A stretch of 62,601 nt of DNA, the filler included, from Kipferlia bialata (lineage: Eukaryota), in assembly GCA_003568945.1 (NCBI GenBank). It is 2 parts of 2 records of this genome, joined end to end, with 100 filler letters (N's around TTAATTAATTAA, not from the genome) between each part and the next. Parts side by side here need not be neighbours in the genome. Positions count along the whole stretch, not along the records: positions 1 to 31,271 come from BDIP01000109.1; 1 more part is not named here. One strand, written 5' to 3'. The position numbers were made by a program, and so were the translations under genes. This document shows positions 1 to 61,137 of this stretch, one piece after another. The first letter of the stretch is position 1; every line of letters begins with the position of its first letter. Below the pieces are notes generated by a model. That model searched no databases and was not told where the DNA came from. It saw only the letters and a program-made list of their open reading frames with translations.

Positions 1-63
<63 letters not shown>

Positions 64-73
64 CTACCCCCAG

Positions 74-157
74 GTGTGTCTCTGCCATGACCTCTGCCAT
101 GCAGTCCACACCGGTCAAGGGCATAGGGGTGGGAAAGAAGTTAGAGGTATATATACA

Positions 158-194
<37 letters not shown>

Positions 195-640
195 AAGTGT
201 ATATATAGTGGTGTATTTATATAGTCTATGTCATGCAGTCCACCCCGGTCAAGGGCATTGGGGTCGGGAAGAAGCTGGAGGTACGCATACTCTTGATGTG
301 TCAACATATTATGTGTGTGTGTATATTCTCTTTGGCTTAACTATATTTGTTCTCACCTTCCAGGTCGTCCCTCCCAACGTCTCCTTTGCAACAACCCTGG
401 ACGCCATGCAGGTATGAACACCAATTGCTACTCGATACAAGATACGCGGAGGTGTCATTGTTTCCATGCACTCCTCACATAGTGTATGATGAGATATTAC
501 AAAATGTCTTTCCCACTCACCCTCTAGCAGCGTCTGCGCCCCACCGTTGACCTCATGTCTCTATTGTGCTGTGCATCTCTACAGCACAGGCACTTGGATG
601 TGCTGGAGAGTGAGACAGGACTGCCAGTGTTAAGGTACAT

Positions 641-671
<31 letters not shown>

Positions 672-1615
672 ATATGTATATATATGTATGCACCTGGATG
701 TGCTGGAGAGTGAGACAGGACTGCCGGTGTTAAGGTATCTATATATAATAATAGATACTATATAGATATATGTGAGAAGAACATTTACCTTGATGTGCTG
801 GAGAGTGAGACTGGGCTACCAGTGCTGAGTATATACATGTACTAACGTACATACTAGATGAGGTGACCCCCACCCAGATGGTCCATTAGGGATATGTATA
901 TTCTTATATATTCACTACGTCATACATCACGTATACATATATATATATATATGAATATACTAGTATTCCTTACTTCAGGCTTGATGAGGTGACCCCCACC
1001 CAGATGGTCCATGAGGGAGGCCTGGACCACTTGGAGGCCATCAGGGAGTCAGTGGCAACAGCCAACGAGGAGGCAGAGGTATATACACGGCCTAGTAGTA
1101 TATACATATATACTTATATATATATGTGTGTATATGACTGTCTGAAGGCCATCAGGGAGTCAGTGGCCACAGCTAACGAGGAGGCAGAGGTACAGTATAT
1201 GTCTATATATATTATAGTATACATACATAGTGTGTGCATATTATTAGAAGGCTATTGGAGAGTCAGTGGCCACAGCCAACGAGGAGGCAGAGGTATATAC
1301 TATACACTTGTATATATGTATGTACTATTTTCTATCCCTGTCACTCACTCTAGGTCGAGACTAGACTTGATGCCTGTGAGAAGGCCATGAACTCATGGAC
1401 CAGTGACATATGCACAGACAGGTGTGTGTAAATAATAGTAATACACACACATATAAATTTGTATACCTGTATATATGCATACTAGTATATATGTATATAT
1501 CTCTGTTAAGGCCATGAACTCATGGACCAGTGACATATGTACAGACAGGTATGTGTATATATACATTGGTATATATATATGCATACATATATAATTATAT
1601 TCATTTGAGTATAAC

Positions 1616-1646
<31 letters not shown>

Positions 1647-3190
1647 CTATATATTATGGTCATGAACTCATGGACCAGTGACATATGCACAGACAGGTGT
1701 GTATGTTTACACTTGTATATATATGTATATATGCATTCTCACCCTCTAGGATAGTTGACATTGCCGCCAGAGGCTTTGGCCCATGGGACCTCAGTGATGG
1801 AGGGTTTGCTCTACCTGCACACTTCTTTGAGACACTCAGGTACATTGACCCACATATATACCATATGTACATATATCCTCAACCACATCTATTGTAACAT
1901 TTATGGACACGTATACTAATTCACATTCTGTCAACCTTTCTTTCTAATCTCCCAGGTCCATTGCCCTGTATGTCCAGAGGGACGTGGGGTCCAAGTATGC
2001 CGCACCCATCACCACAAGGTACGTGTGTATCTACACATGTATAGCCAATTTGATTAGTTAGTATATTGTTTTAAATCAGTATTGCAGGAGTATTCATTGT
2101 AGTATATATAGGTATCTATTCATTCAATCTCTATATTATATACATATCTCACTACTAATTCATATCTCACTAATTTGTAATAAGACTTACCCCCCAGGGC
2201 CAGGGCCGTTGAGAACACCATGCTCTGGGCCATGCACTCAGGGTCACTACTGAAGTGAGTATTCTACTCTATGTGGTAGTGTATACTACGCGATTAGTAT
2301 GTACTATACATATACATACATATATGTCTATGCTCTGGGCCATGCACTCAGGGTCACTGCTGAAGTGCGTAGGTGTAATATATAGTATCTGTATTGTATA
2401 ATACATTGCATATATGTACATATATGTCTAGAACACCATGCTCTGGGCCATGCACTCAGGGTCACTTCTGAAGTGAGTATACTACGCGATAGGGCATCAT
2501 CTATATCTTACGTGATTGCTATTGACCTTACTCCCAGGTGTGCCCAGCAGTATATCTCAGTGGGCAGCATCTTAATGACTAGCTCCAGTGCACACAGGGC
2601 AGTGTACTCTGGCGCTATCAACAAGGTGCCTACATGTATTCATATCGCCTATATTCTCTCTGGTACTTCTTGAGTAAGAGTATCAATATATACCCGTCGC
2701 GTAGTATCTCACCCCCAGTGGTACTCTCTGCGCAAGAGTGTGAAGCGGCTTGCCAAGAGCAGACTGCTGGACGTGCTGATGGACACGGACTTCAGCGAGA
2801 ACGTGCATGCCATTGTGGCATCACTCTCACCTACAATTCAGGTCTCAGTGTTCATATTCATGTTTGTCTCCCCCTATTGGTATTCCTATCCTCCAGTGTA
2901 TCTGTCTCTCTCTCTCTGTCTCTCTAACCATAGACCCTTAGCCACCGTAGCATGCACGACACCCTCCTAGCCTCCAGTGGAGATGGCACCGAGACATCAC
3001 TGAGGGGACTCATGACTATACCAGCCAAGGCTACCTATATTCAGGTACTCTCTCTCTCTCTCTCTATCACTACGTGCATATCATTCTTACCCACTAGGCC
3101 ATTCAAATGCGCCATGTCCCCAAGACCATTCTCTCTCTCTCTCTCTCTCTCTCATGTATAGGCGCCTCAAATGCGCCCTGTCTCCAAGAC

Positions 3191-3235
<45 letters not shown>

Positions 3236-3272
3236 ATGTATAGGCCCCCCAGATGCGCCCTGTCCCCAAGAC

Positions 3273-3305
<33 letters not shown>

Positions 3306-3517
3306 ATGTATAGGCCCCTCAAATGCGCCCTGTCCCCAAGACCCTTCTCTCTCTCTCTCCCCCTCTCTCTAATGTATAGCCCCCCCAGATGCGCCCTGTC
3401 GCAACGGCCCTAGTTTTTGAATATATGTATATATTTATATATATATATGTGTGTGTGTGTGTAATCATCTAACCTCTAGGCCCCCCAGATGCACCCTGTC
3501 CCCAAGACCCTAGTTTC

Positions 3518-3549
<32 letters not shown>

Positions 3550-6500
3550 GAATGTGTACTCTTACCTCTAGGCGCCTCAAATGCGCCCTGTCCCCAAGAC
3601 CCTGGTCTCTCAGTGCAAGGAGGGGGAGATGTATGTCCCCTATGCCCCAGTCACACTCTTCAACGTGGATGGGTTCATAGTCGCTAAGGTGCACACTATA
3701 TGTTGACTATATATACAGATATACCGTATATGTAAGGTTGTATTCTAGGTATTTAACACCACGTCCCTGGTCAGAAGAAGTCCTCCACCTCCCACTGGTA
3801 TCTGTCCTATTAGAAGTCTATATTAGTATACTCTATCTATAACACTAGATCCCAGGCCATAAGTCCCCGACCACCCTAACAATCACTCTCTCTCCATCTA
3901 TAATAGACATATATATGGTTTGTAATTCTTTGTATCTAACACCAGGTTCCCGGTGTAAAGAAGAAGAAGTCCCCCACAACCCTTGATGATACCCATATAT
4001 ATATGTTATCTAACTATGCTATAAGATCAATGGTAATACTTACACCAGGTTCCTGGCATTAAGAAGAAGAAGTCCCCTACAACCTAATAGCATCTATATA
4101 TGTCTAAGCACTCCATTGGATCTATATACTGTAAGTACTCTGTTACTGATTACAGGTCCCAGGCCAGAAGAAGAAGAAGTCCCCCACCACCCTGGAGGAG
4201 GGAGATGAGGAGGAGGAGGATGTGTGGGAGATCACGGGTGTGACATCAACAACGCGCATAGCGGCGCAGGTACCTACTCTTTGCCATTCTCTCAATGTAT
4301 ATATTGATATGCATACACATCCCACCCCAGGCTGACCTTCTGCGACTGAGGGACAAGGTGCCTCTGTCAGAGGTCAGAGGCCTCATTCCAAGGTATACAT
4401 GTGTATACATATATATATCTACAGTATGTAATACATGTAAACTGATACATATACTCTATATATACATATATATACCATATGTAATGTACTATGTGTATAT
4501 GGACAAGGTGCCCCTGTCAGAGGTCAGGGGCCTGATTCCAAGGTATTCATATAAATATATATATATATACATACAGTATGTAATATACCATATGTATACT
4601 GTTTGGTGCCTCTGTCAGAGGTCAGGGGCCTTATTCCTAGGTACAATAGTGTATACATATACTATTTAGAGCCTCCCTGTGTGACACAGTAGCACACGAC
4701 AATGATAGTACCATGTATTCACTTTCTCACAACTACTGAATTTCTATATACTCTCTACTTCTTACACTTAGGGATGTGCGTGCATCCATGCGTGACTCAG
4801 TTATACATACCACTGGCTCTGTTATTCACATATACTTACTACATATACATATATATATACTAATCCCTAGGGACGTGCGTCAGTCCATTCGCGACTCTGC
4901 CATCTCCGACCTATATGTATATATATATACTTGTACACTATACTAGTATACTAATCTCCAGAGATGTGCGTCAATCCATGCGCGAGGCAGTAGTGCATGA
5001 CACCGACTCTGCCATCTCTGACCTGGAGGCAGATGAGATGGATGCATTCTGGACAGGACACACCTATCACGCTAAGCATACAGGTATATATACACTATGT
5101 ATATAGTGTATATAGTATATATAGTGAATATATATGTATGTATATAGGATGACCTAGGGGCATATGAGATGGAGGGGTTCTGGACAGGGCATACCTATCA
5201 CGCAAAGCATATAGGTATATGTATATAGTGTGTATAGTATATATACTCTGTATGAGATGGAGGCAGATGAGACGGAGGCATTCTGGACAGGACATACATA
5301 CCATGCAAAGCATACAGGTATATGTATATAGTAATGTCTGTACCAGTTGCTGTACAAAAGTATCTGGTACTGACCCCAGCCCTCAACGTGTATGTGCATG
5401 ACCTGCTGAGGAGGGCCACAGTGTATATAATATATACATATAAATATATACATTACATATATATATACAGCATATTAACCCCAGCTCTGAATGTGTATGT
5501 GCATGACCTGCTGAGGAGGGCCACAGTGTCACCAGAGGGGGTTGCATCATTGAGACACGCTGTGAAGGCAAGTATTATGTGTATAGTGTATACTATAGTA
5601 TATGTGTATAGCACTATATACATGGTGTCACCTGAGGGGGTGGCATCACTCAGACACGCTGTGAAGGTATATATATATACATGATATAGTGTACAATAGT
5701 ATATATATATATGGGTATATTAGGATGTAGAGTGTCACCTGAGGGGGTGGCATCACTCAGACACGCAGTGAAGGTATATATATATATATATATACACTAT
5801 ATATATACTATATATATTCTAAGTATATACTATATATTGTCAGAAGTGTATAATTAGATGTACAGTGTCACTCGAGGGGGTGGCATCACTCAGACACGCA
5901 GTGAAGGTATATATATACATATTAGTATGCAAGTAAATTTAACTCTCGTTATGTATATATACATTTGTATGTATTTACTGACCCCCAGGACATCCTTGCC
6001 CAGATACAGCTACCCGAGTACAGACAGGACAGGGCAGACGACAGGTATATAGAAATACATGATATGTATTACTATTTGTATTGCAGTGTATAGTATGGTG
6101 TGGTATATAGGATATTGTATCAACTGCCCGAGTACAGACAGGACAGGGCAGATGACAGGTATATATATAGTATATGTTTAGTATATATATAGTATAGGAT
6201 AGTATGTATGTATGTTATACAATGGTAACAGGGCAGATGACTTGTGAGATACATGTAAATATGTCCCGTATCTTGGACATACTATATATACATACACGCC
6301 ACTAATACTATATGTACTAAAATTGTCCGAGTGCACTACTCGTGCCCTAGTATATACCCATCGATATATATATATACACTAACAATAGATACCTCTGCGA
6401 GGTCCTTGTACCCGAGTGGACTACTCATGCTCTCTCTTTCTTTCTCTCTCTCTCTCTCCAGATTCAAAACCTCTTCTCACCTTAGGTATCTCTGCGAGGT

Positions 6501-7231
6501 CCTTGTACCCGAGTGGACCACCCGTGTACTTGGCAGGGTACAGGGTGACACGGTGCATGTGCCTGTGCTCAGTGTGCCATGTGTCTCTAGATACATGTTC
6601 CAGTCAAAGGTAAACCGCGTAACTATAGGATCGCGTAACAATCTTTGTGGAGTAGTGAGTATATTTTCAGTGTGCCATGTATGTCAAGATACATGTTCCA
6701 GTCAAAGGTAAACCGCGTATTATGTGTAATCGTGTAGTTTCATATAAGAAATAGTATATATACTATATATACTGTACACTAACTGTAGGCCCTCTGCTAT
6801 TCCTCTATGGGTGTGCACCACAGACACATTGTCAATGACTGGCTGGGGGCTGTCAATGCGGCAGACTTAGGGTCAGGTATACATACATACATACATACAG
6901 TATATACAATACATAGAGAGAGAGTGTGTATATTCATATATATTAGACACATAGTCAATGACTGGCTGGGGGCAGTGAATGCTGCTGACCTGGGATCAGG
7001 TACATGTATTGGGGATGTGTTTTCCAGCCATGCTGGTATATTCAGTGTGTGTCTCACATCCAGACGCGTATATGAGTATACGTGTGAGTTTACAGTTAGA
7101 GATTATATATCTAACCTCAGCTGCTGACACCGACCAAGCATCATCCCTCCTCGAGAGTGACAGAAGTACAGACCAGTTTGGAGCATTATTGGCAAAGGGG
7201 GTCACGCTAGGTATGATAGTAATGTGTATAT

Positions 7232-7269
<38 letters not shown>

Positions 7270-7330
7270 GAGCACAGATCAGTTTGGGGCATTGTTGGCC
7301 AAGGGAGTGACACTAGGTATGATAGTAATG

Positions 7331-7371
<41 letters not shown>

Positions 7372-10300
7372 TGACAGAAGCACAGACCAGTTCGGGGCAT
7401 TGCTGGCAAAGGGGGTGACATTAGGTATGTGTATATAGATAACATGGTAAGTGTCTATATCGTATTACTTATACAGACAATGTAGCTGAAGAGTATTCTC
7501 CTGTGCACCTCTCACCCCCAGGTGTCTGTAGTATATTGTATATTATATAATGTATATTGTATATTGTATTGTATATAGTTCCAATGTTTATCAGTATACT
7601 GTAGTATATATGTATATATGTGTATATGTCCACTCACCCAGGTGTCTGCAATGCAGTGGGTGCAGGGATAGGCAGCACGGGCAGATACATGCAGCAGGTA
7701 CAGCATACTCTATATACACACACATACTTATGTATTAGTGTATATATATACATCTATATACTGGGATAAGCAGCACGGCAGATACATGCAGCAGGTACCA
7801 TAAACAGGATACTTATTTACCCATGTATATGTTGATTGATTAATGTATGTATATATATATATGTATATTGTTATACTGAGAGGCAGCACAGGCAGATATA
7901 TGCAGCAGGTACAGCATATGATACGATATACTTTACAATACATATGCGTGTGTATTGTTATAATGGCTTAGGCAGATACATGCAGCGGGTGCCACATACC
8001 CTTTAATATATATGTATTTAATATATATGTAATAGTGTACTAATTATTCATATGCATGGCCCTTTGTCATTGATTATATCCTCTCTATCTCTCTCTCTCT
8101 CCCCCCCCCCCTCCCATCCCCCATCCCAACTCCCCATCTATTACTATCCAATATCAGCTTTGTCATGAGTTAGGCATGGCCCCCTTTGTCATGAGTGCCA
8201 ACCAGCACCCAGACCCAAGGTGTGTATATACACATATACATGCATATATGCATATATACCTAGTGTGATAGTATCAATGGTATATATACATGGCCCCCTT
8301 TGTCATGATATCCAACCAGCACCCAGACCCAAGGTGCGTATGTATGGATATATATGTAAATACATGATTGCTGTGAAGTTTGTGTTTGTATATGCATATG
8401 TCCTGACGCACCAGAATGATGGCTTGCACCATCTCCGACCTCCTAATGTGTACTGCATAAGTATATATACTACTTATGCTATACCTTACGATACTATATA
8501 CGATCTGTCCTGTAACTTTAACCCCAGAATGATGGCCTGCACCATCTCCAACCTCATACTGGAGGGGCACCTGGTCTACCTGATAGGGGTGGAGGTGAGT
8601 ATAAATATGGATACTCCATCATACAGCCTAGCAATTCTAGGCTAGCGTCCTAGCGAATATATATATGAACCATATATTAAATGTATGGTCCTACGTATAT
8701 GCATGTATACATGAATATATCACTTGTCTCACCTCCAAAAAGCCTTCCCTCCTTGCACTTCTGATATATGTATATATATATATACATATCAATTATAGTA
8801 TTGACTATGTACTATACACATCTCGTGTCTAACCCCCAGAATGCTTCTCCCGAACTCTTGGCCCTCCTCGTTGACATCACCAACACACTCAGGCTGGGTG
8901 GGGAGTTCCCATACGCCAAGGGACCAACCATACCACACGGGGAGGTACATACATATACACTTACATCTATATATTCATACTTGTGGTATACTTTGATTCT
9001 ATATATCATTGGAATTCCCATGCGCCAAGGGACCCACGGTGCCACATGGAGAGGTATACTTCTATTCTTATACTCTCTTGCTCTCTTTACCAATTGTAAT
9101 TGTACTGACTCCTCACCCCCCAGTCCCCTGACTCTGATCTGTGTGTTGTCAGGAACCCCCTTGGTAAGAGTGCCCCCCACCCATCAGAGCACACAGTGGG
9201 GGCACTGGCATTCTACTTGCCAGGTAACAATATATAATATATAGTATATATATAGTATATATATATTGTATAAATAGTATATTAATGTACATATATACAT
9301 ATGTGAGTGCACCCCACCCATCAGAGCACACGGTGGGGGCACTGGCACTCTATCTGCCGGGTATGATATATGTTCATCTAGTTCATTACTATTGTTCCTA
9401 CGTTTCCATATCGTTTCTTACCCTCAGTCCTGGTGCCTGGTCCCTTTGTGATACCCGACCACCTGCCCAAGGACTGTGCCATCAGGTATTTATATACATA
9501 CACACATTCTAATGGGTATATGTTTCATATTAGAATGATATTTAGACACACATGTATACAAGCATATATATGTAGAGAGAGAGTAGTGGTATTAACCCCA
9601 GATACATTGATGTGCGTCGCCCCCCCGAGAAGCTGAGGTTCATACCCAAGTGCACTGGAAGGCCATGCCTGGCACTGAGGTATCAATATATATATATATG
9701 TATATATATATTGATACTATGTACACATATATACAATGTACATATGTACTATATACTGGGGGTTCATACCCAAGTGCACTGGAAGGCCATGCCTGGCACT
9801 GAGGTAGAGATACCTAGTATATGTAGAGTATAGAGCACATATATGTGTATATATACGTTCGTATCTCACTTCAGGACCACCTGTGCAGCAGCCAAGCCCC
9901 AGATATATATAAATATGTCTAGAAATAGTATTCATATGTATAGTCTATCCATATATATATATATATACATGTATACATATACCTTACTCTCCAGGACCAC
10001 TTATGGTAGTATACATATATATATATATGTGTATACATACGTTCGTATCTCATTTTAGGACCACCTATGCAGCAGCCAAGCCCCAGATATTCCTGGACCC
10101 CTCTGACGTGGCCATAGCAATGCGGATTAGGTATATGACAGCAGCAACCTTGTACTCACATTTTGTTATGGGTTCAGATACTCTATATCTACCAGTGTGG
10201 ATATCTGCATTGTCTGAGTCCTAGGGACGAGGGTGACTATGAGTTAGGAAGTGACGCTAATGCTGACTCATATATATATATATATACATATGCTGCAGTA

Positions 10301-13163
10301 TATGTATATATATGTGCATAGTCTATGTCTAACAAGTAGGGATGAGGGTGACTACCTTGGTGGGAGTGATGCCGATGCTGACTCTGAGGCAGAGGCAGAG
10401 GGCGACAGCCCAGAGACTGCAGTGTACAAGTACCTGTCCATGTCATTCAGACCCAGTGACAGGTGTGTATGGTATAGTATATACATATATATCATATGTG
10501 TGAGACATATATAGTGAGTCTACAAGTACCTGTCGATGTCATTCAGACCCAGTGACAGGTAATAGTAGAGTGTATTACAGTATTAATATATATATATAGC
10601 ATATGTGTGAGAAATATATAGTGTACACAAGTATCTGTCAATGTCATTCAGACCCAGTGACAGGTATAGTGTGAATATATAGAATTTCATATATATATAT
10701 ATATTTACCTGTATATACCTGTCCATGTCATTCAGACCCAGTGACAGGTATAGTGTGAATATACATATATGTATGATATATATATATACATAGAGAGATT
10801 CATGACACATATCCACATACATTGAGAGGTGTTCATATTGCTGTGTAAATTCTCACTCTTCAGGGAAGGCCTGCTCTCTGCTGTGTCTGCTGCCTCTATC
10901 CTGATATATCACCTATACATATATAATATGTATATATATATATATCTTAATATAGTATATTACTACTTACTATCAGGGAAGGCCTGCTCTCTGCCGTGTC
11001 TGCTGCCTTTGGGTCATCCATAGACGGGGAGAGACAGGTATATATATACTAACATATATGTATACATGTATACATATATGTATATATGTATACAGTATCA
11101 GTTATGTACATGTATGGTGTCTGTAGCGTTTGGGTCATCCATAGACGGGGAGAGGCAGGTATGTATATACATATATATGTATGCATGTATTCAGTATCAG
11201 TAATGTATACATATATAGTGTCTGCTGCCTTTGGGTCATCCATAGACGGGAAGAGACAGGTATAAGCTCTAGACTCTAGTGTTTCAGTATACACTGCCCC
11301 CCCCCTGACACATGTTATATATTATATATAGTAGACTAATGCTAGGAACCTGTCCCTGACTATGGCCAGTCCCAGGGCATTCTGTCTGGAGAGGGTGTCT
11401 ATGCAGCCAAGTGGCTAAACGCACTGCTGGAGACACCGGATGCTAAGGTACCTCACTATCTATATATATATATACATATCAGTCTATGTGTCTCATACCT
11501 AGGTTCAGATTCAGCCTCCTGCATCACTGAGCTTGCCATATATCTACCTACATACATATCTATATATATATATATTTATGTGTATGTATAGTATATACTA
11601 ATCTCCAGGGCTGGATCCAGTCCCCCTGCATCAACACTGGCATTGTCATACACACACATATATATAAATAGTCTCTATTTCCCAATCCATATATCTATAT
11701 CTGCATTACACTCATCTCCAGGTCTGGATCCAGTCCCCTTGTATCAACACTGGTCTTGCCATTGTCCAACATGCAGCCAGGGAGAGTGGGGCATCTATTG
11801 ACTTCAGAAGGTGATTCACACAGATGACTTTATATCTATGTCTAAATGATTATGTATAAGATATATTAACTATTAGAGTATTTTTGTATATGTCAGGGAG
11901 ATTGAGGCCAGCATTGATTACTGGGATTACACATCTATCTCTATAAGTGTGTATCAATATCTCCATTCACTGACCCCAGACACCCCAATCACATTGTAGC
12001 TACATATGTAGCACATACCAGTACCACTATATCATATGCTATTATATATGTATCTATGTCACTGATTCTAGGCACCCCAGGTTGAGATGCCCAGAGAGAG
12101 ATGTTATATACATGTATAATCTAGTAATATACATGTATATATATATATATATATATATGAATATCTCTGATACTGACACCAGACACCCTAATGAGGTCGA
12201 GCTACCAGTATTGACTATAGGCGGCATGTGTATATGTAACTTCTATAATAGATTTGTAAATTTGGTGCCTAGTGTATTTACTGACCCCAGACACCCCAAC
12301 GAGGTCGAGCTACCACGCAGGGGACTCAAGTCAGCAGACTGGCAGGTACTGGTCTCTTACAGTACTTCTACACGATACATGACCAGCCACTTCTTAAAGC
12401 TTCACGATATGCATAGTCTCACCCCCTAGGTCATCGACATGAGGTTTGACACGAATGGCACCACCTGTGGATATGAGGCAGAGGAGCAGGTATAGATATG
12501 TACTATAGATACATAGTAGTATATACCCTATATATACAGTATATGTACTATTAATGTTTCTGTATCCCCTGTGGATATGAGGCAGAGGAGCAGGTATAGA
12601 TATTGATGTTTACCACATACAAATAGTATAATCTATAGATCTGTGCTTCTATAGATCTCTCACCTGTGGGTTCCAACTATATATAGTCGTCTACTCTTTG
12701 CTACTCACCCCCAGGTTGCACAGCTGTCCAGGATGTTCAGAGTGGCAGGGGGGCAGGTAGGATATATATATGATAGAGACCCTGTATATACCTGTGATAC
12801 CAATTCATACCATACTATATACTATATATACTCTATGTATGTCCAGGATGTTCAGAGTGGCAGGGGGGCAGGTAGGAAGAATACTTAGTATCTACAGTAG
12901 AGATACAGTATATAGTGTATGTATATATATACTATAATAACTATACTAAACATGTCCAGGATGTTCAGAGTGGCAGGGGGGCAGGTACTGATTGTGATGA
13001 TACGGTATCTCTAACATTTTTCGCCTTCAATTTCTTTAACTGCATATGTGTCCTTTTACAGGTTATGTGCCTAACATATCAGCGCAGCATCATGATCAGC
13101 CCGACCTTGCCTACCCACAACCAGTACATGGTGCACACACTCAGGTATGTATCGGCATACGTA

Positions 13164-13198
<35 letters not shown>

Positions 13199-43338: not shown

Positions 43339-46300
43339 TATATACCATGTAATAATAATAGTGACCTCCGGGAACATATGTATCCATCATATGATATGGT
43401 ACACACATACTATGCCAATCATGAATCCTCTGGATGGAATGCCCAGCTCCCATACACAACTGCACTTACTATCATATAACACATACTATGCCATTCATCC
43501 TATATAGTACCTCTGGATGGAATGCGGCCCAGCTCCTTCGGGCCACCTTCAAAAGCCACGAGAACCTGAGGACTAGGTCAAGGAGCATGTACACAGGGTA
43601 CACCCACTTCCTGGGGGGAGGGGGTAGGGATGGGTGGACATTTGTATGGAACTCACATCGCTGTGAAACATGAGGCCTCTCTAATACATACACACAAACG
43701 TATATATATACCCACGAACACTGACCGTGACACCTGATACACACTGATGCATTCACTGGCTAATACTCTGAGTATATTTGTACATCTACCAGTACATATA
43801 AATATATAGCATACCTGTGGAGCAGGGTGCCCTTGGCATCTGGGGATGCACACAGCAGCCCACAGTCTGTCATGTCCCACAGATAGCAGTACATGGACGC
43901 AGCAGACCTGGGGTGGATATCAAGTATAATCCCCTCAATATTCTGTAACTGTACAATTGTATATATACAATAGTGTTGATGGAAGCCATCGTGTCTCAAA
44001 TACACTTGAACCCACATGACACTCCGTATGGTACTAGAATATACATGTATACTACATATCTACCCACATCTACCCACCTCGCAAACAGCCAGAGGTAGTA
44101 GTACACGGGTGCCCCCTGGGTCTCAAAGAGCAGGAAGCAGACCCCAGCCAGCAGCAGCAGGGTGTACTTGCCCATAGAGGCCAGGTGGGGGAAGCACCTC
44201 TTGGTCTTGGCCAGTAGTGACATGCCCTGCAACAATCTGAACAGGGCAGGCAGCATCACAACCAACGATGTGGACCAGCGGGATATGCCTATGCACGCAT
44301 CACTCGGGTGGGTGGTGGGGCCGTAGAAGGGGTCCGTGTAGGTGCCCTGCGGGTTAGCAATATATATAGGCATCAGGGGTATGTCTCAGGTGTGTATGGT
44401 ATTGAAGATCAGTGTCACTGTCATCCTTGGCACAGCTTTTCGGCTCAACTGAACATATACAAATACAAATATCTATCCATATTAATATGCATATATATCA
44501 GGAAGCAGGTATTAAAAAAAGAATTCTGACGTATACCATAACTATAAAGGAAGAGCACAATGAATATTCAGATATACCTTCACTATCTCGCACACTGACC
44601 ACGTGATGTCACTCAGTGACTGTTGGTACGAGGTGAGGGTCCTAGGTTAGAGGGTCTAGGTGGAGGATGGATATGGACCATGCACTACCTGTACAACAAC
44701 CATGGGTACATCTCTGCATTGATACACATTAGTATGCATTCAGCACTGTACATACACTATGTACAAAAGGAGCACTCACTAATGTGTACTCCATCTGTGA
44801 CAACTGCTATAGTATGCACTCACTAATATATATATATTTATACATGCACTCACTCTGTGACAAAGAAGTCGAAGAACCTGACCCGGGAGAAGGGAAGGGT
44901 GGCCCATTTGGCACAGACCTGGGGTCAGATGGGGTAGATAGTGGGTGCATGTTACACACGATACATGACACGTGATACATCCCGGGTGACAAGGCATAGA
45001 CATGCACCATCAATCTCTGTGAAGCCACCCATTCTTGGTAGCAATGCAAGTGTCAGTAGCAATAGTGTCAATCGTTAGTGTCAATCGTTAATGTCAATCG
45101 ACATGCCAGTCACACATCAGTCTCTGTATACATAGACGGTACACCTTCTAGATGATACACTGTGTTCCTAGTATTTACTATTGAAATAAACATATATACA
45201 CGTATACCTCACATACCCACTACCCACCTTCCAGAATGATAGCCGGGCCCCCGAGTGGAATACATGTAGGGGCACTGTGAACAGGACTAGGAAGGACGCA
45301 AAGAGGACCAGGACAGGATAGCCAACAGGCCAGGGCTCCCTGGGAGGTGAGGGACAGATATACAAAGACAGATAGACGGATAGACAGAGAGAGAGACTCG
45401 CAATGCCTGCAGAGACGCTGGTAGTATACATGGATTATCACCTCTCCACCCATAAACCATTACACTATCCCTTTGTAGAAAGCACACTTGTGTTGACTCC
45501 AGTATAGCACTGCATCTATAGCTATATATATACAGACATATAGATATATATATATATATATATATATATCTGCACCTGAACTGGGTGTTGATGGCCTTGA
45601 GCAGGAGGGCTATGCCAAAGGCTGCCAGGCAGGAGAGATAGACCACACTGAGCATCCCGGCCATCTTGGACAGTTGGACCTGGGGGGTGGGGTATATGCA
45701 TATACAGGCAGAGGTACATGGACGGATGCAGGGTGGATAGAGAACGGCACAATGGACACAATAGAAACAACACCTTCATAGAGTGATCATTGCCACCTTG
45801 GAGGACCTGGTTAGATATATACTGATCTATGTACCAAGATATAGAGAGGGAAGGAGGGAGATATACCACTAAAAGATGGGCCGTACATGGGTGAGTGTCC
45901 TCTTCGGATGGAGTTCCATGACAAACACATGGTTGATCTCCTCCTTGGCAAAGATGTGCACATCTGGTGTCATATATATATGTATATGATATATGTAAGG
46001 TATATATGTGCACATCTGGTGTTATATATATGATATATATATGTGATATATATATATGTATGCACATCTAGTGTCATATGTATATGATACATATATGGTA
46101 TATATATATGTACATCTGGTGATATAAATACATATATGTATGTATATGTGCACATCTGGTGTTATCTCTATATATGTGATATGATAAATATGATATATAC
46201 GTGCACATCTGGTATCATGAGTGGACATCACGTACTCACTACACTGAATATATGAACCCACCTAGAAGGGACACTATCTGCTCTCTGCCGTATAGATGGA

Positions 46301-53133: not shown

Positions 53134-53612
53134 CTGGGTGTCAGACAGAAGAGAGAGACAGGGAGAGAGAGAATGGGGAGAGAGGGGAGGGGGGGGGGGG
53201 GGGGGGGGAGGCTCAGGCAAGGGGGGGTATGTACATACATCGGGTGTGTGTATACAATACTACACCATACCTGGCAGCAGAGGTCTGACATGCACACTGT
53301 GAGTGTAACTCATGTCTGTCTCTATCTCTCTCTCTCTCTCACTTTCAAGCCTTCCCTATCCCTCCGTTACTCTTCAGTAGCCTTCTGGAGGTTTCAATCA
53401 CTACGTAGTAGCTTCCCCCTCTCTCACCCCGCGTATCAGAGGCCTTATGGGTGCTCGGAGGTAGGGCTAAGAGACAGGTGTCAAATTGTATGATTTTTCA
53501 GAATTGAACTTACAAAAAGTCTAAAAACACGACACCGAATCTATAAAACTGTATGTCTATTTATCCTTGAAAAGACACCTTCCTTGCAGTGTAGTGGAAG
53601 CACAGTAGATCT

Positions 53613-53734
53613 ATGGACGAAGTTGCTGCGGCACGTGCTGCAGCCAAGGCAGAGCACAAGAGGCTATGTGCCCAGGGGGATGAGCTGAAGATTGAGACAC
53701 CCACTGGGCTCATATCAGGCACCCTGGTAGACAG

Positions 53735-53776
<42 letters not shown>

Positions 53777-55156
53777 CCTTCTCCCCTTGCCTGCCTTGTC
53801 TATATTGCAAGTGGGCAGTATTTATAGGGTCAAGTCTTGTATCCACTCGCTCTTTTTCATTTTCTTTCTCTCTCTGCCCCCCCCACCTCAGTGTGTGCAT
53901 ATATATATATGAGTGTCAATATCTTGAATGGACTCCTCTCTCAACTCTCTCTCTCTCTCTCTGCCTGGCAAGGGTGCAGATACCAACCCCTCTCAACACA
54001 TCTATCTACATATATTTACATATACTTATGTATATCCTATGGATATTCATCACTCACAATAGGTCTGACAAGGGTACAGACACCGACAACACCCCAGGGT
54101 CCAGAGGAGACATTGCCATCATGATACACGGGCTGGTATGTGCAGGGTATTGTCCATAGAACAGTTCATTGTATATATAGTGTATATATGTATAGAGAGA
54201 GGGAGAGAGAGTCTTTCCACTCTACATCTCCTGGGGTTACCAAGATATATATTTGTTTTCCTCTGACCTCACAGGGCTCCCACAGCAACATGCGCTTCTT
54301 TCCTTCTTTCCATTATGTATGTATGTATATTATATTATAAACTAATGTACTATCTGCAATTATAGATTTTTCACCCTGGGCTCCCACCGCAACTTACGCT
54401 TCTTCCCATGAACATACTAATACCATATGCCACAGTCATGTATACACATGAATATACCCTGTGTGTTCTTATGCTTATCCCAGGGCTCCCACCGCAATAT
54501 GCGCTTCTTCCCCATGCTGGCAGACACCCTGCCGGCATCGTCATACAGGTGTGTATGTATATATGCATACTAATACTGTGTGTGTGTCTGATATACGGAA
54601 ATATGACCTATACTAACCCCAGGTTTGACATCCAGGGCCATGGCAAGAGCACAGGGGAATTCAGGTGAGATACATATAGATATATATGTATATATACATA
54701 CAGATATATATATATATATCTGTAGGTTTGCATATGTATCTATATATCCCTCTGTCAAGGATATGGCCAGAGCACAGGGGAGTTCAGGTGAAGCTAGCTA
54801 CTGTAACACCTCTTTCTCTCGCTCTCTGGACAGGAACGTTCAGAGGTTGCCGGGACTATAACGTATACCCCACCTTCTCTCTCTCTCTGTCTCTCTCTCT
54901 CTCTCTAGACCCTTACTGTCAGCCTCAGTTACAAGCGTGATGTGGAGACCATGGAGTACATCCATCCTCTATCTCTCTCTCTCTCTCTCTCTCCCCCTCT
55001 CTAGACCCTTAATATCAGCCTCAGTTACAAGCGTGATGTGCAGACCATGGAGTACATCCACACCTTCTCTCTCTCTCTCTCTCTCTCCCCCTCTCTAGAC
55101 CCTTATTGTCAGCCTCAGTTACAAGCGTGATGTGGAGACTATGGAGTACATCCATA

Positions 55157-55190
<34 letters not shown>

Positions 55191-55246
55191 AGACCCTTAT
55201 TGTCAGCCTTAGTTATAAGCGTGATGTGCAGGTCATGGAGTACATC

Positions 55247-55290
<44 letters not shown>

Positions 55291-57973
55291 AGACCCTTAT
55301 ATTCAGTCTTAGCTACAAGCGTGATGTGGAGACCTTGGAGTACATCATCACACACCTCGAGGGGATGGGGTTCAGTGTTACCGATCTCATAGGTATATGG
55401 TTCATATATACATATATACTATATACTAATGAGTATCATCACACACCTCGAGGGGATGGGGTTCAACGTGACTGATCTCATAGGTAAATATATATATACA
55501 CATACACACATATATACTAATTTATGTATTACATATATATCTACTATATGTACTATATATATATACTATATACATATGGTTACATCATCAGACACCTCGA
55601 GGGGATGGGGTTCAACGTGACTGATCTCATAGGTATATATAGTGTATATTCTGATATGTATATACTTACCTTCTATGGGTAAATTAATATATAGTGCATA
55701 TATATATATGTAGTTACTATCTCTATAGGTCATTCTAACGGTGCCAACATTGTGCTGAGCATGCACCAGTCGCCTAACCATATGTATAGATATAGATATA
55801 GATATAGATATAGATATAGATATAGATAGATAGATATACTGGTAAAGAGGATGTAGCTCTCATATTTACATATATACGGGTATATATGCTTACAGGTAGG
55901 CCACTCCAAGGGTGCCAACATTGTGCTGAGCATGCACCAGTCACCCCTGCCATCACTCAGACACCTGTTCATATGCTCAAGCAGGTACATAGGCACATAC
56001 ATAGTATATATACAAATATATATGAGTATAGGTACATATATGTATTAATATGTATATATAGTATCGCCCCTGCCCTCACTCAGACACTTGTTCATATGCC
56101 CCAGCAGGTACATAGACATATATATGCACATATAGATTGTGATCGATACTGCCCCCCTCCCCTCTCCCCTAATCCACACTGATATATCCCTGTCGTATTC
56201 CCGATATATGTACAAGTATCTTCTTAATTCCTCTCTCTCTCTCTATGTTCCTCTGTCTCTCCCTCTCACCCCTGTCCTCACCCTCCCAGGCACGACATGC
56301 TCGGCAGACCCAAAGGTATGTATATCAATATATATATATATATATAGGGAGAGACAAAGGTATGTGGATGTAAGTTGGGGCACTCTATCGCGTTTCTCTC
56401 TTTCCCTATTTGCGTCTCTCTTGATTCATCGCTAACAGTATATCGTGCCTTCTTTCAGTATACATATAGTATGAGAAATAGAATATTTCAGAATACATAT
56501 AGTACAATAACCTTGATATAGTATAAGTATTGTATAGTATCTCTCTCACTTTCCAGGCCGATACTCCGATGCCCAGCGCAAGACTCTGGCTGAGACTGGA
56601 TGCTTCAGACACACATTCAGCAAGTATGTATATATACTGTATAGTGTATACATATATATATATACAGTATATTCCAAATAGTAATTTCTTTGAGATTGAA
56701 AGCTTCACTGCAAGTACGCATGTATTGACTACAGTACTTCCTATACATATACCACTGATATCTTGACCCCCAGGTACACTGGAGAGGTCACTGTGCGTGG
56801 GTGTGACATGAAGGAGAGGGAGCAGGTATCCATATGCCATGCCCAATTCTATATACCACACTCTATTCAGAGCATATTATATAGTGTATGTGGGTGTGAC
56901 ATTGTCAGTGTCTGGACTCCTAGATTGACATGTATACTTCTTCTTGACTGGTCCTGACTGCTCTTGACTTCTATTGACCCCTTCCCAGATTGACATGGAC
57001 CGTGACCACCTTGCCAAGTGGGGGGAGAGAGAGGCCAGGAGGGCACAGGAGGGATACACTCCCTTAAAGGCCACAGTGGTCCATGGGAGGTATATATTCT
57101 TTAGTAATACTATTCATATATATGTATATCATATGACATATATATGTGAGAGAGAATATCAGTATCGCTTGAGGCCACTATCGTGCACGGGGAGGTACAC
57201 TCATACATTCACATACTCTCGTATGTATCCTATATAGTGTAGTCCATTCTTCTATATACTTGCTCCTTTGTATATTTCTATTTCCAGCTCTAGATACCTA
57301 TTTTCTGTATTACTTATACTTAGAGCTGATACACTCATCCTCTATGCAGATGCAGAGTATATCAGTATCAGTATCACTTTCTGTATACATACATTATTGA
57401 TATCCTTATATATATTTTACTCACATTAGGGCCGATACCGTCATCCCCTATGTGGATGCTGAGCGCATCAGAGACGGACTGGAGAGGGTGGGGGTGGCAT
57501 GTGCGCTCTTCCCACTAGGTACTTGTATACTACTCTATGCTATGCTATACAATACTATACTATACTATACTATACTATACTATGTATATACTGTATTCTA
57601 TGGAGAGGGTGGGGGGTGGCATGTGCCCTATATCCACTAGGTAAGGATTGCATATCGCATATATACTGGACAAATACTAGGAATATATGAAGTGTGTACA
57701 TTGTATATATGTCTTTATTGTATATATGTCTATACATCCGTAGATGGACATGTATATGTACTATATATGTATTTCCGAAGCAGTCTAACCACAGGCCCTC
57801 CCAAGGCAGATGGAGTGGAGGGGGAGAGGGAGGGAGAGATTGAGACCCCCCAGATAGGGGAGGTAGAGGGAGAGAGAGAGGAGGAGGAGGAGGAGAAGCC
57901 CTGTGACCACATGTTCGCAGGGTACGAGAAGGCAGTGGCTGACATTGTAATGGGGGTTATCAACGCTAGATAG
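53613..57973 (+). CDS. Alpha/beta-hydrolase fold protein (serine esterase-like)
   Basis: Spliced product has IMIHGLGSH, RFDIQGHGKSTGEF, nucleophile GHSKG (about 55900-55915), acid HGRADTVIP and His CDHMF. TAG at 57971-57973. Confidence 0.88.
54900..55306 (+). repeat. Four tandem units of about 95 bp: (CT)n + branch + AG + about 40 nt of the next exon
   Basis: Echo starts at 54923, 55019, 55113 and 55207. The full exon (SLSYKRDVETLEYIITHLEG...) starts at 55307. Confidence 0.92.
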
Positions 57974-58348
57974 GAAGCTAACGCGAAATACAATTGCTCA
58001 CGCGAGATTTATGGTTAGCAGTGGCTGACATAGTCATGGGGGTCATCAACGCGAGATAGATAGACAACGTGACATAGAGAGTTGATAACACACACGATGT
58101 ATGTGCCACTATTGACCTTGAATGTTAGCAATCACAACTGAACTGAACTGAACATGGTGACCAAGTATCTATTTCACAACTCTTCCAATCATGAGCAGTT
58201 GTCCTGCAAAGCCCTTGAAAGATAGTGCAACGCCTAGTCCCCCTAGTCTCTCTAGCGTAGGCCGAATCCCTCGCTGTCACTCTATCTTTGTCTAGCTAGA
58301 TATAACACTAGGGCCTAATAGTCCTTTGACATACAAGTGAGGAAACCT

Positions 58349-60334
58349 CTAACGGAGACCGAATCCCTCGCTGTTGCCAATGGCAATCAGAAGCTGCTCA
58401 CGAAGAACATCCTTGGAGCTGGGGTGAGTACATATAGACAGAAAGAGAGAGACAATGAGACCTGAGGCTAATACATATACGTGTATATATGGTGAGAGTG
58501 GAAGAGACAGACACACGCATACCTGTAGTCCGGTATCATGAGGGCACTGAAGCACACGTGGGAGGTGGGGAGTCTGGGATGAGAGGATGGTACCTAAAAC
58601 ACAGACAATATATATAGCTATACTACCATCTATAGCTGTAGGTCACATACATAGGTAGTAGACATGCATGTACATGGTACATATAACTTGTCAATGCCCA
58701 TACCTGTCATCCTCCACCCCGTTCCTGACAATGATGAACTGCTACATTAATATATAAATATATATATGTACATATATGTGATGGTATATTCTATGTCTAC
58801 TATACCTGTCATCCTCCACCCCGTTCCTGACAATGATGAACTGCTGCTTGGAGAGACCGCCTGACTGTCAGAATACAATATATATATATGGAAGATATAT
58901 ATATATATGGAAGAAAAGTGACTGTATGAACTGCCGCTCAGAGAGACCACCTGACTGTAAGAATACATAACCAAACTATATAGAGCGACAATACAAAGAC
59001 ATAAAACAATGGTGACTGTAAGAACTGATACACTATGTCATACCTACTGGTGCCCTGTCACTCCCGCACACACCAACCAACCAATCAATCAATAGACAAA
59101 TGAATCAATCAATCAATCAATCAATCAATCCATTAATGATGATTACTCACCTACTGGTGCCCTGTCACTACCACACACAAACTTGAGCAGTTGTTTCTGC
59201 TGCTCTGGGGTCATGTCATGCACAATCTCCCAGAACCACAGGACTGAGGTGAGTATATATTATATAGACATAATGATATACATTATATTATGAAAGATGT
59301 ATATATATGAATATGAATATATAGGTCATGTCATGCACAATCTCCCAGAACCACAGGACTGAGGTCAGTATATGCGGTTATATTATATATATATACTTAT
59401 AGGAGAAGTGGAGAAGTGAGGTTAAGTATATAGAAACAGATATATAGATATATATGTATCAAATGCTGTGGTCATGTCATGCACAATCTCCCAGAACCAC
59501 AGGACTGGAATGAGTATATATTACATATACATACAGATATATAATATAATGTGAAAGATGTATATACATGTATATGTATATGGGTCATGTACAATGTCAT
59601 GCACAAACTCCCAGAACCACAGGACTGGAATGAGTATATACGGCTATAATAAATAATTATAATCATATCAAGAGTGGAGAAGTGAGGAAAAGTATATAGA
59701 AACAGATCTATAGATAATGAATTCAGAGGTCATGCACAATCTCCCAGAACCACACGACTGAGGGTGAAAGTACGGTTAATCACCAAAACAATATAGAATT
59801 ACACAAAACATTCAATGTATTTCATTGTATGTAAAAGACAAGGACCATGCACATTCATACCATACCTATCTTGTGGCTGGCATATGTTTCTAGAGTATAC
59901 ATCTACTATATGTCATACCTATCTTGTGGCTGATGTGGTACCCACCATCAAATATAGTTATATATAGGTATACATACAGGTATATATAGTACATACAGTA
60001 CACACAATAGTATACAATACCTATCTTGTGGCTGATGTGGTACCCTCCATCAAATAACCATATATATGCATATATACATATGTATAGGTATACAGTACAT
60101 ATAGCATATGTATACCATGTATCCTACCTATCTTGTGGCTGATGTGGTACCCTCCATCATACTTGGTGACACGCTCCAGGGCCTGGGGAGTGAGACTACG
60201 AAATGAATATATTTATATATATAATGATAATGTGCTATTAAACACACATGAACATATAACCATACCTTGAAGTCGAGTGTCTGTTCTCCACACACTATCA
60301 GCTCCATCTCCTCGGGTCTGAAGAAGGGGGGGCC
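58349..60334 (-). CDS. HECT-domain E3 ubiquitin ligase, C-terminal part only (UBE3A/HERC-like)
   Basis: Exons splice to [106 protein letters not shown]. The catalytic Cys and terminal Phe are retained. Confidence 0.92.
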
Positions 60335-60430
60335 CTATGAGTTAGACATATATATATAGAATATATAGTGTATACACACATGTATATATATATATATATA
60401 TATCAGCTCCATCTCCTCGGGTCTGAAGAA

Positions 60431-60475
<45 letters not shown>

Positions 60476-60858
60476 TAGGGTAACACGAGGCAAAGAGATG
60501 GTGAACTGGCAACGACTATGCAGACGGGTGAGGAGTGATGCACAAATAGGTATAAATGCAGAGTGAGACTGACTAAATACTGCCAAATACAACTTGTAGT
60601 GTGAGAGTATAGCTGGGAAATATTGACTAATATCCCGGTAAAAATACTCTTATGCACAAAATTCACCACTTACAGAGCACGGTAGTTGAATACTTGACCG
60701 AGACAGCGGTAGAGACCAAAAGACACTATGTTGGGAAGACCACTTAACCATCACCCACTGCCACTGCAATACAACACCCATCCCGCTCTCACTCCCTCCT
60801 CTCTCTGTATATCCCCCTCCCCCTTCCACCCCCCTCTGTGACCGATAGCAGAACTCAC

Positions 60859-60996
60859 CTCCTGCCTTGCGGCTGTCTGCTCAATCTCTCTGTTGTAGTC
60901 TGGCTGCACTGCCTGGACCTGTCTCAGTCTCTGCCGCAGCTGGGCATTCCTGGCCTGCTGGTACTGCAGGTCTTCGTGGGAGCCAGACCCAGACAT
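60859..60996 (-). CDS. Probable first exon (MSGSGSHEDLQYQQARNAQLRQRL...ARQE); parent gene unclear
   Basis: ATG-initiated, coiled-coil-like and ends at a phase-0 GTGAG donor. It is in frame with the HECT exon at 60334 but separated from it by a long G run. Confidence 0.5.
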
Positions 60997-61137
60997 AGCT
61001 AGTAGTGCCTGGGGGTGGTAGAGAGGGGGAGAATGTTCAGCAATTCAGAGAGTCCGACGAGACTTTGATCGGAGAGAGAGTTGAATCTCGACCGGCGTTG
61101 AAACCATACCACTTCCCAAGGCCCACCTAGAGCTGAG

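What the first reader, a model, noticed from the sequence alone, without database searches (positions are those of the whole stretch)
4393..4961. Nested intron geometry with a divergence gradient toward the centre
Order within the intron: real donor 4393, echo donors after 4542 and 4640, echo starts at about 4668, 4772 and 4871, then the real acceptor at 4961. The real exon reads RDVRQSMREAVVHDTDSAISDL. The 4871 echo is RDVRQSIR-------DSAISDL (21-nt in-frame deletion), 4772 is RDVRASMRDSVIHTTGSVI, and 4668-4712 is RASLCDTVAHDNDST. Inner copies are more diverged yet stay in frame with several conservative replacements (E/D, V/I, A/S, M/L). INFERENCE: the intron grows from its edges and stores older versions of the exon, or inner donor/acceptor pairs are spliced first (nested splicing).
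Basis: partly seen in the sequence, partly recalled or inferred. Interest (0 to 1): 0.8.

Follow-up and report, generated by a model that had tools for sequence, protein, structure and literature searches.

The report
Introns archiving other alleles' exon ends
Most introns of a giant gene in what is likely the free-living protist Kipferlia bialata hold copies of the neighbouring exon ends, splice signals included, that the main mRNA skips in the part tested, and these copies differ from the real exons mainly at silent positions, which suggests they were captured from other working alleles and would point to extreme genetic diversity and chromosome exchange in a group where sex has not been observed.

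Summary
The echoes at 4393-4961 are real (the 4668 one is too weak to stand alone) and are one case of a gene-wide pattern: 123 partial exon-end copies in 65 of 89 introns of a 90-exon dynein-heavy-chain-like gene, likely of Kipferlia bialata. A spliced RNA contig fits the outermost splice sites with zero slack over 12 introns, including this one. The proposed age gradient fails gene-wide (Spearman -0.03; paired 14:14). Nested or recursive splicing is unlikely: 46 of 65 echo-bearing introns have one-sided echoes, and donor echoes lack branch points. Exon-side site choice (exon definition or scanning) fits best. The surprise is the divergence: echo versus exon differs at 27.5% of four-fold sites but 4.2% of zero-fold sites (ratio 0.15; neutral copying gives about 0.5). 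The silent part is uniform across echoes and star-like; the replacement part looks like neutral decay. Best reading (about 0.55): tandem junction arrays are refreshed by misaligned recombination with diverged working alleles, implying silent diversity near 0.2. No population data could be obtained, and no annotated second allele was found. Verdict: new variant of junction-spanning repeats (human F7 type); interest 0.7.

The parts
74..31009 (+). Part of a giant gene (90 exons, 7851-nt open frame, 2617 aa), divergent dynein-heavy-chain-like family; 123 echoes in 65 of 89 introns
   Evidence: aligns over 2621 columns at 53% to KIPB_000659 and at 43% to KIPB_000784
4331..4392 (+). Real upstream exon (62 nt)
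   Evidence: length fixed by RNA contig offsets; paralogue alignment
4393..4961 (+). Focal GT-AG intron, 569 nt, absent as a whole from the main mRNA
4501..4544 (+). Donor echo 1: last 42 nt of the upstream exon plus GT; 3 silent, 0 replacement differences
4605..4642 (+). Donor echo 2: last 36 nt plus GT; 3 silent, 0 replacement differences
4668..4714 (+). Possible decayed third acceptor echo; below the significance threshold, no branch motif
4755..4821 (+). Acceptor echo: branch motif, AG 4770-4771, first 50 nt of the downstream exon, 26% diverged, mostly replacements
4855..4912 (+). Acceptor echo: branch motif, AG 4869-4870, exon start with a 21-nt deletion
4962..5083 (+). Real downstream exon (122 nt)
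   Evidence: RNA contig piece 4960-5083
5568..5988 (+). GC-AG intron whose weak GC donor (5.6 bits) is followed by three stronger GT echo donors (5667, 5774, 5907; 11.1 bits)
   Evidence: no insertion against the paralogue; not covered by RNA
3094..3518 (+). Six-copy acceptor-echo array separated by (CT)n/(TA)n
   Evidence: skipped in the RNA contig
54063..57960 (+). Unrelated gene on the second contig (hydrolase-like, label recalled from a GxSxG-type motif): 14 echoes, four-fold 20 of 70, zero-fold 18 of 327
58523..60334 (-). Unrelated gene on the second contig (HECT-like, label recalled): 10 echoes, four-fold 3 of 26, zero-fold 4 of 190

Best explanation
The intron holds partial tandem copies of the two flanking exon ends with their splice signals, which the main mRNA skips, likely because the spliceosome picks the donor and acceptor nearest across each exon, and the copies were likely taken from diverged working alleles of the same exons by misaligned recombination between homologous chromosomes. 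Steps: (1) shown: copies of about 40 exon bases plus splice site recur every 111 nt or so. (2) shown for 12 introns: the main mRNA uses the outermost sites. (3) inferred: sites are chosen from the exon side, so half-exon copies are harmless while whole-exon copies are purged. (4) inferred: one founding duplication per series sets the breakpoint; later unequal exchange or conversion, confined to the exon-derived part where alleles still match, brings in exon ends that were working on another haplotype until then. They arrive with about 0.19-0.26 silent differences and then decay neutrally by a few percent before being refreshed or lost.
For: RNA: record 9 of run X2 fits the outermost-site model with offset 0 at 8 of 8 listed pieces; its loose end at 5083 continues in the outer acceptor's exon at 5485, not in the echo at 5380. 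Exon-side choice: 0 of 80 series copy a whole exon against 14% expected by random placement (P about 6e-6); 22 of 71 echo donors and 16 of 44 echo acceptors score above their real site; GC donor 5568 precedes three stronger GT echoes. Origin: four-fold 224 of 814, zero-fold 124 of 2935, ratio 0.153, bootstrap 0.115-0.197, p about 1e-27 against 0.5; the pipeline run on simulated neutral echoes gives 0.42-0.56; five genes of the second contig give 26 of 112 and 25 of 600, p 2.6e-4. Echo-echo four-fold distance 0.282 equals echo-exon 0.275; three-way counts 88 one-echo, 39 exon-only, 19 all different, 233 same, a star. Four-fold differences are not overdispersed (chi2 126 on 122 df), which rejects spread ages (P at most 0.0007) and a two-class source (0 of 3000 runs); zero-fold differences are (214 on 122). 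Replacement changes look unselected: 49 of 884 at residues invariant in two paralogues against 48 of 1175 at variable ones, 4 stops in 121 changes (4.2% expected), GC to AT 67:26. Series share breakpoints (median 3 nt against 10, p 0.0004) and decay is higher far from the splice site (0.064 against 0.022). One 654-nt DNA contig at depth 435 matches bits of exons 5, 7 and 8 in order (45 of 48 at exon 7) with shorter spacing: a second diverged copy. Literature: k-mer peaks suggest a diploid (PMC5874029); metamonads lack NHEJ and fornicates have Dmc1 paralogues but no Rad51A (PMC8516963); crossovers concentrate in exons in hypervariable Schizophyllum (PMC4209137).
Against: No population sample exists here, so allelic diversity is inferred, not measured. 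All 7 K. bialata proteins seen have single-member 90% clusters, and searches with two exons of the gene found no annotated twin of up to 2000 aa (weak tests). Depth of X2 on 1-5085 fits one transcript. The second copy could be a paralogue fragment. The intron side of each echo is far more diverged (identity about 0.45-0.5 against 0.35 for unrelated sites) than four-fold sites, which needs fast slippage in these TA/CA-rich introns. Replacements are slightly conservative (mean BLOSUM -0.13 against -0.45, p 0.023). Echo splice signals are well kept (GT 66 of 71, AG 40 of 44, branch motif 84%), which a function in cis would also give. The distal decay gradient weakens with trimming (p 0.003, 0.049, 0.13). 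Contigs hide minor isoforms and intermediates.
Confidence: 0.55

Rival explanations
1. Same capture mechanism, but the donors are recent paralogues or long-separated homologues (homeologues, polyploid or asexual copies) inside one nucleus rather than alleles of a recombining population.
For: A second diverged genomic copy at equal depth in the same DNA run; the gene belongs to a family in this species; k-mer peaks suggest two chromosome sets (PMC5874029).
Against: The annotated paralogues seen are only 39-53% identical; an unrelated gene shows the same four-fold level (20 of 70); a two-class source is rejected and the star pattern needs three or more sources.
Confidence: 0.17
2. Echoes are under selection where they sit: they are translated in minor isoforms, or are recycled into the working exon often enough by pop-out or conversion that harmful changes are purged.
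For: Low replacement rate, also for changes private to one echo (ratio 0.24); slightly conservative replacements; well-kept splice signals.
Against: Using an echo site would keep an open frame in only 7 of 67 donor and 7 of 40 acceptor cases; periods are flat modulo 3 (41/39/35); replacements are not depleted at invariant residues; uniform four-fold distance contradicts spread ages. By my own reasoning (not simulated), recycling only works if 4Ne*mu is about 0.3, which is hyperdiversity again.
Confidence: 0.13
3. Nested or recursive splicing: inner donor-acceptor pairs, or AG|GT points at donor echoes, remove the intron in steps.
For: Geometry of this intron (two intact donors, then two intact acceptors); 57 donor echoes end in AG before the site; the final mRNA would look the same.
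Against: 46 of 65 echo-bearing introns are one-sided; a branch motif precedes about 10% of donor-echo ends against 90% of real acceptors, and 4 of 57 reach the real acceptors' 5th percentile; after an inner splice the exon-like halves would remain inside the intron with no need to keep amino acids; it does not explain the silent bias.
Confidence: 0.08
4. Ordinary tandem duplication on one chromosome followed by neutral decay, older copies pushed inward.
For: Shared breakpoints, regular period, some alignable spacers (donor side mean z 0.57, p 0.006); faint inward excess of weak remnants.
Against: Predicts a zero-fold to four-fold ratio of 0.4-0.55, observed 0.15; predicts ratio 1 between sister echoes, observed 0.26; no rank gradient. 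Base composition does not explain it: all four bases change 4 to 22 times more at four-fold sites.
Confidence: 0.04
5. Assembly artefact: two haplotypes merged in tandem.
For: Would give silent-biased copies; the focal intron itself is not spanned by any listed DNA piece.
Against: Separately assembled contigs of run X1 cross echo junctions with 0 differences at depth 352-453 (208-624, 696-1410, 2219-2459); series reach 7 versions; echoes carry stops and frameshifts. X1 may be the data behind the window, so this is a second assembly, not a second sample.
Confidence: 0.03

Closest known systems
Junction-spanning minisatellites of human F7 intron 7, CBS intron 13, LMNB2, PDGF and 6-16 (PMC1557585; abstract and passages read)
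   Same: First unit spans an exon-intron border, so the donor is reiterated in the intron; in F7, LMNB2 and PDGF only the most upstream donor is used.
   Different: There: single loci, donor side, pseudo-sites described as identical for F7. Here: 73% of the introns of a gene, both donor and acceptor sides, 1-6 copies with nearly unrelated spacers, and a strong silent-site bias.
Intron gain by tandem duplication of an AGGT site (Rogers model; PMC3265369, passages read)
   Same: Short intragenic duplication tolerated because the redundant part is spliced out.
   Different: That makes a new intron inside an exon; here existing junctions are copied into existing introns and intron number does not change.
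Recursive, nested and twin-intron (stwintron) splicing (PMC10156609, PMC4482092, PMC6616335; search listing only)
   Same: Splice-site-like sequences inside an intron.
   Different: Branch points are missing at the would-be recursive sites, most introns are one-sided, and the outer signals are not interrupted.
Tandem exon duplication with mutually exclusive splicing (PMC3228551, PMC9013439; search listing only)
   Same: Neighbouring exon-like copies with a purifying-selection signature.
   Different: No copy has both splice sites (0 of 80 series); frames are not kept.
Hypervariable species, Schizophyllum commune (PMC4576712, PMC4209137; abstracts read)
   Same: Silent diversity 0.20 and crossovers confined to conserved exons match the level and the geometry inferred here.
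   Different: There measured from many genomes; here inferred from echoes in one window.

Membership tests
Junction-spanning repeat (F7 IVS7 type) | Unit spans an exon-intron junction and reiterates the splice site | tested here: met
   71 of 74 donor and 44 of 49 acceptor echoes reach the site; GT kept in 66, AG in 40
Junction-spanning repeat (F7 IVS7 type) | Reiterated sites silent, exon-proximal site used | tested here: met
   RNA contig offsets over 12 introns, 7 of them with echoes; main isoform only
Junction-spanning repeat (F7 IVS7 type) | Homogeneous head-to-tail units | tested here: not met
   Exon part about 10% diverged, intron part near background; only some arrays are found by Tandem Repeats Finder
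Junction-spanning repeat (F7 IVS7 type) | Copy number varies among individuals | not testable with these tools
   One sample only; metagenome scans found no relative
Recursive splicing | AG|GT point inside the intron | tested here: met
   57 donor echoes end in AG because exon ends do
Recursive splicing | Branch point and acceptor context upstream of that AG | tested here: not met
   About 10% against 90%; 4 of 57 reach the 5th percentile of real acceptors
Nested splicing / stwintron | Matched inner donor-acceptor pair in each case | tested here: not met
   19 of 65 echo-bearing introns have both kinds; the focal intron does have two and two
Nested splicing / stwintron | Intermediates seen in RNA | not testable with these tools
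   Only contigs were available; none of the listed joints came from the RNA run, 18 rows not shown
Mutually exclusive duplicated exons | Whole exon with both splice sites and compatible frame | tested here: not met
   0 of 80 series against 14% expected; 0 of 40 echo acceptors followed by a strong donor (only 2-4 expected, weak)
Intron gain by AGGT duplication | New acceptor at the start of the second copy | tested here: not met
   Branch motif plus AG near the echo start in 3 of 71
Hyperdiverse recombining species | Silent diversity above about 0.05 measured among individuals | not testable with these tools
   Inferred 0.19-0.26 from echoes; no second isolate

The most novel reading that the evidence does not exclude
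Kipferlia introns are a genome-wide archive of other alleles: each echo is a snapshot of a working exon end from another haplotype, so one assembly records a population with silent diversity of 0.19-0.26, at or above the most diverse eukaryote measured, together with routine exchange between homologues. That would be sequence evidence of sex or parasex in a metamonad, and of strict exon-side splice-site choice by a reduced spliceosome.
Probability: 0.4. Interest if true: 0.85.

Novelty: new variant of a known kind. Interest (0 to 1): 0.7.

Why it matters
It gives thousands of natural tests of splice-site choice in a lineage with a reduced spliceosome (87 of 174 proteins and no snRNA candidates found; PMC6679479) and short introns, where pairing across the intron would be expected (my background knowledge). 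It identifies a route of intron growth: about 98 nt per echo, with exon-derived bases making up 20% of this gene's intron sequence. [quoted passage not shown] Echoes also mislead gene finders: my permissive model took many as exons.

Tried and rejected
No whole genome was held, so everything rests on this window. RNA and DNA contigs were laid on 1-5085 only; junctions further on, including the GC donor at 5568, rest on the open frame and the paralogue alignment. No run was on record as RNA; X2 is taken as RNA because its record lies in exon-only pieces with continuous coordinates. Low depth bins in the focal intron (186-219) were not interpreted, since records are filtered and most pieces are hidden. 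Pfam on 40 single exons gave nothing above a curated cut-off; the dynein-like label comes from a paralogue's UniRef name and a recalled P-loop resemblance. Protein searches with exons 4963-5082 and 2719-2841 found no protein of up to 2000 aa. Metagenome scans found no relative or only two 18-residue matches, L001 and L002, which were dropped. The first gene-finder run over-called echoes; the model was curated by hand (8 exons removed, 5 corrected). In the second contig one model had a wrong acceptor (fixed); an SPX/EXS-like model (label recalled) with frame errors and 1 echo was left out, and the acyl-CoA synthetase gene has 0 echoes in 6 introns. The pipeline split the 4871 echo at its deletion, so only its last 21 nt enter the pooled counts. 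Echo residues match paralogue residues no more than chance (8 of 117). Ten paper searches (top listings only) showed no description of this pattern in Kipferlia; the genome paper has no occurrence of 'duplicat' in its main text; its supplements were not read, and subscription journals are not searched.

Full report
Setting. An exon of the window's second half is 100% identical over 159 aa to a protein that NCBI names Kipferlia bialata KIPB_000875. The window joins two contigs at a linker near 31270-31370. For the first contig, which holds the finding, the species is inferred from the same intron style and from K. bialata paralogues. A self-trained gene finder, curated by hand (8 exons removed, 5 corrected), gives 90 exons from 74 to 31009 with a 7851-nt frame and no stop, 88 GT-AG introns and one GC-AG intron. 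The product aligns over 2621 columns at 53% to KIPB_000659 and at 43% to KIPB_000784, which UniRef names a dynein heavy chain linker domain protein. This checks the model independently.

The observation. The 21-nt deletion is real. The 4668 copy matches 20 of 28 bases, scores 16 against a null 95th percentile of 19, and has no branch motif; it is a plausible remnant only.

It is a gene-wide pattern. At a score reached by 1 of 2132 unrelated pairs, 123 echoes lie in 65 of 89 introns: 32 donor-only, 14 acceptor-only, 19 both, with donor echoes first in 19 of 19. Echoes copy the near end of the exon (median 40 nt) with its site, recur at a median of 111 nt, and add about 98 nt each to the intron (r 0.86; one intron with a gap left out). 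Separately assembled DNA contigs cross several echo junctions with no difference at depth 352-453, so they are not an assembly stutter, though no listed piece spans the focal intron.

What the mRNA does. One 7769-nt contig of run X2 lies on exons only. Its coordinates fit the outermost-site model with offset 0 at all 8 listed pieces, over 12 introns, 7 of which hold 23 echoes. Between pieces 4266 and 4960 it has 63 letters, exactly what joining 4392 to 4962 requires. Where exons between listed pieces are not shown, only the summed length is checked. Contigs cannot show minor forms.

How sites are chosen (inferred). Many echo sites are as strong as the real ones: 22 of 71 donors and 16 of 44 acceptors score higher. 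The GC donor at 5568 (5.6 bits) precedes three GT echoes of 11.1 bits, and the paralogue shows no insertion there. No series copies a whole exon (0 of 80; 14% expected under random placement). All this fits choice from the exon side: the first donor after an acceptor and the last acceptor before a donor. Recursive use is unlikely, since about 10% of donor-echo ends have a branch motif against 90% of real acceptors. Nested use cannot be general with 46 one-sided introns. Using an echo site would keep the frame open in only 14 of 107 cases.

The gradient. Not found: Spearman -0.03 (p 0.72); adjacent pairs 14 up, 14 down, 9 equal; replacement-only 14:11. It holds on the acceptor side of the focal intron. 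Weak remnants lean inward (7:2), a possible trace hidden by the detection threshold.

The unexpected part. Of 475 differences, 331 are at third codon positions. Four-fold sites differ at 224 of 814 and zero-fold sites at 124 of 2935: ratio 0.153 (0.115-0.197). A dead copy beside a constrained exon should give about 0.5; the same pipeline on simulated data gave 0.42-0.56. Five genes of the other contig agree (26 of 112; 25 of 600). Two components separate. The silent one is uniform across echoes (chi2 126 on 122 df; spread-age and two-class models rejected), symmetric in GC direction (79:67), equal between echoes (0.282) and between echo and exon (0.275), and star-like. The replacement one varies among echoes (chi2 214), runs GC to AT (67:26, predicting 29% GC; these introns have 32%), ignores conserved residues, includes stops at the neutral share, and doubles in echoes with lesions. 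So most of the divergence arose while both versions were coding, and a little arose afterwards as decay. Subtracting decay leaves 0.19 uncorrected or 0.26 corrected.

Mechanism (inferred). Copies within a series share their far breakpoint (median 3 nt against 10), so each series has one founding duplication. Sister echoes nonetheless differ mostly silently, similarity drops sharply at the splice junction, and decay is higher far from the site (0.064 against 0.022; weaker after trimming). Misaligned exchange or conversion between an echo and the working exon end of a diverged homologue, limited to the exon-derived part, gives all of these. One DNA contig shows a second copy of exons 5-8 at 45 of 48 identity with shorter spacing. 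The genome paper reports k-mer peaks suggesting diploidy (PMC5874029; parts 1-2 of 6 and term passages read). Metamonads lack NHEJ, and fornicates have two Dmc1 paralogues and no Rad51A (PMC8516963; passages); that Dmc1 tolerates mismatches is recalled, not checked. In Schizophyllum, silent diversity is 0.20 and crossovers favour exons (PMC4576712, PMC4209137; abstracts).

Against. No isolate comparison was possible. No annotated near-identical twin was seen for 7 of 7 K. bialata proteins or for two exons of this gene, and RNA depth fits one transcript. The intron side is more diverged than the four-fold sites. Replacements are slightly conservative (p 0.023). Close paralogues or homeologues as donors, and selection in place, remain open.

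Comparison and verdict. It works like the junction-spanning minisatellites of human F7, CBS and LMNB2 (PMC1557585; abstract and passages), but fails their homogeneity feature and differs in scale, in being two-sided and in the silent bias. It is not a set of mutually exclusive exons, an AGGT intron gain (PMC3265369; passages) or a recursive site. Ten searches showed no account of it in Kipferlia (top listings only). An earlier AI note describes similar junction copies in a sea-urchin gene (e1-7787398; not checked). New variant of a known kind; interest 0.7; best explanation 0.55; boldest reading 0.4.

Noticed in passing
5568-5569, with 5667, 5774, 5907: Weak GC donor apparently used ahead of three stronger GT echo donors; reading through to 5666 would also be in frame (33 extra codons), so a minor longer form is possible.
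   Followed up: partly
74-31009, exon ends: Very strong exon-side donor consensus: A at -2 in 83 of 89 and G at -1 in 88 of 89.
   Followed up: no
31900-53500 against 74-31009 and 53600-62600: Echo density is uneven: 0 of 6 introns in the acyl-CoA synthetase gene (median 65 nt) and 1-3 per gene in 32-48 kb, against 65 of 89 and 7 of 10 elsewhere.
   Followed up: partly
run X1 record 5, on 1383-1406, 1965-2012 and from 2208: A second, diverged genomic copy of exons 5-8 with shorter spacing at the same depth.
   Followed up: partly
31272-31371: N-flanked stop-codon linker joining two contigs; the giant gene is cut there.
   Followed up: yes
74-31009: K. bialata has a family of giant, very divergent dynein-heavy-chain-like proteins (4938 and 5100 aa paralogues, 43-53% identical); no Pfam hit above cut-off on 40 single exons.
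   Followed up: partly
45954-46220 (-): About seven short copies of an acceptor-side motif in TA-rich sequence, too short for the echo threshold.
   Followed up: no
57932-58060: A copy of the last codons and stop of the terminal exon lies just downstream of the gene end, so copying is not limited to splice junctions.
   Followed up: no
4871-4912: The 21-nt deletion lies between two copies of the same three bases in the real exon, as in microhomology-mediated deletion.
   Followed up: no
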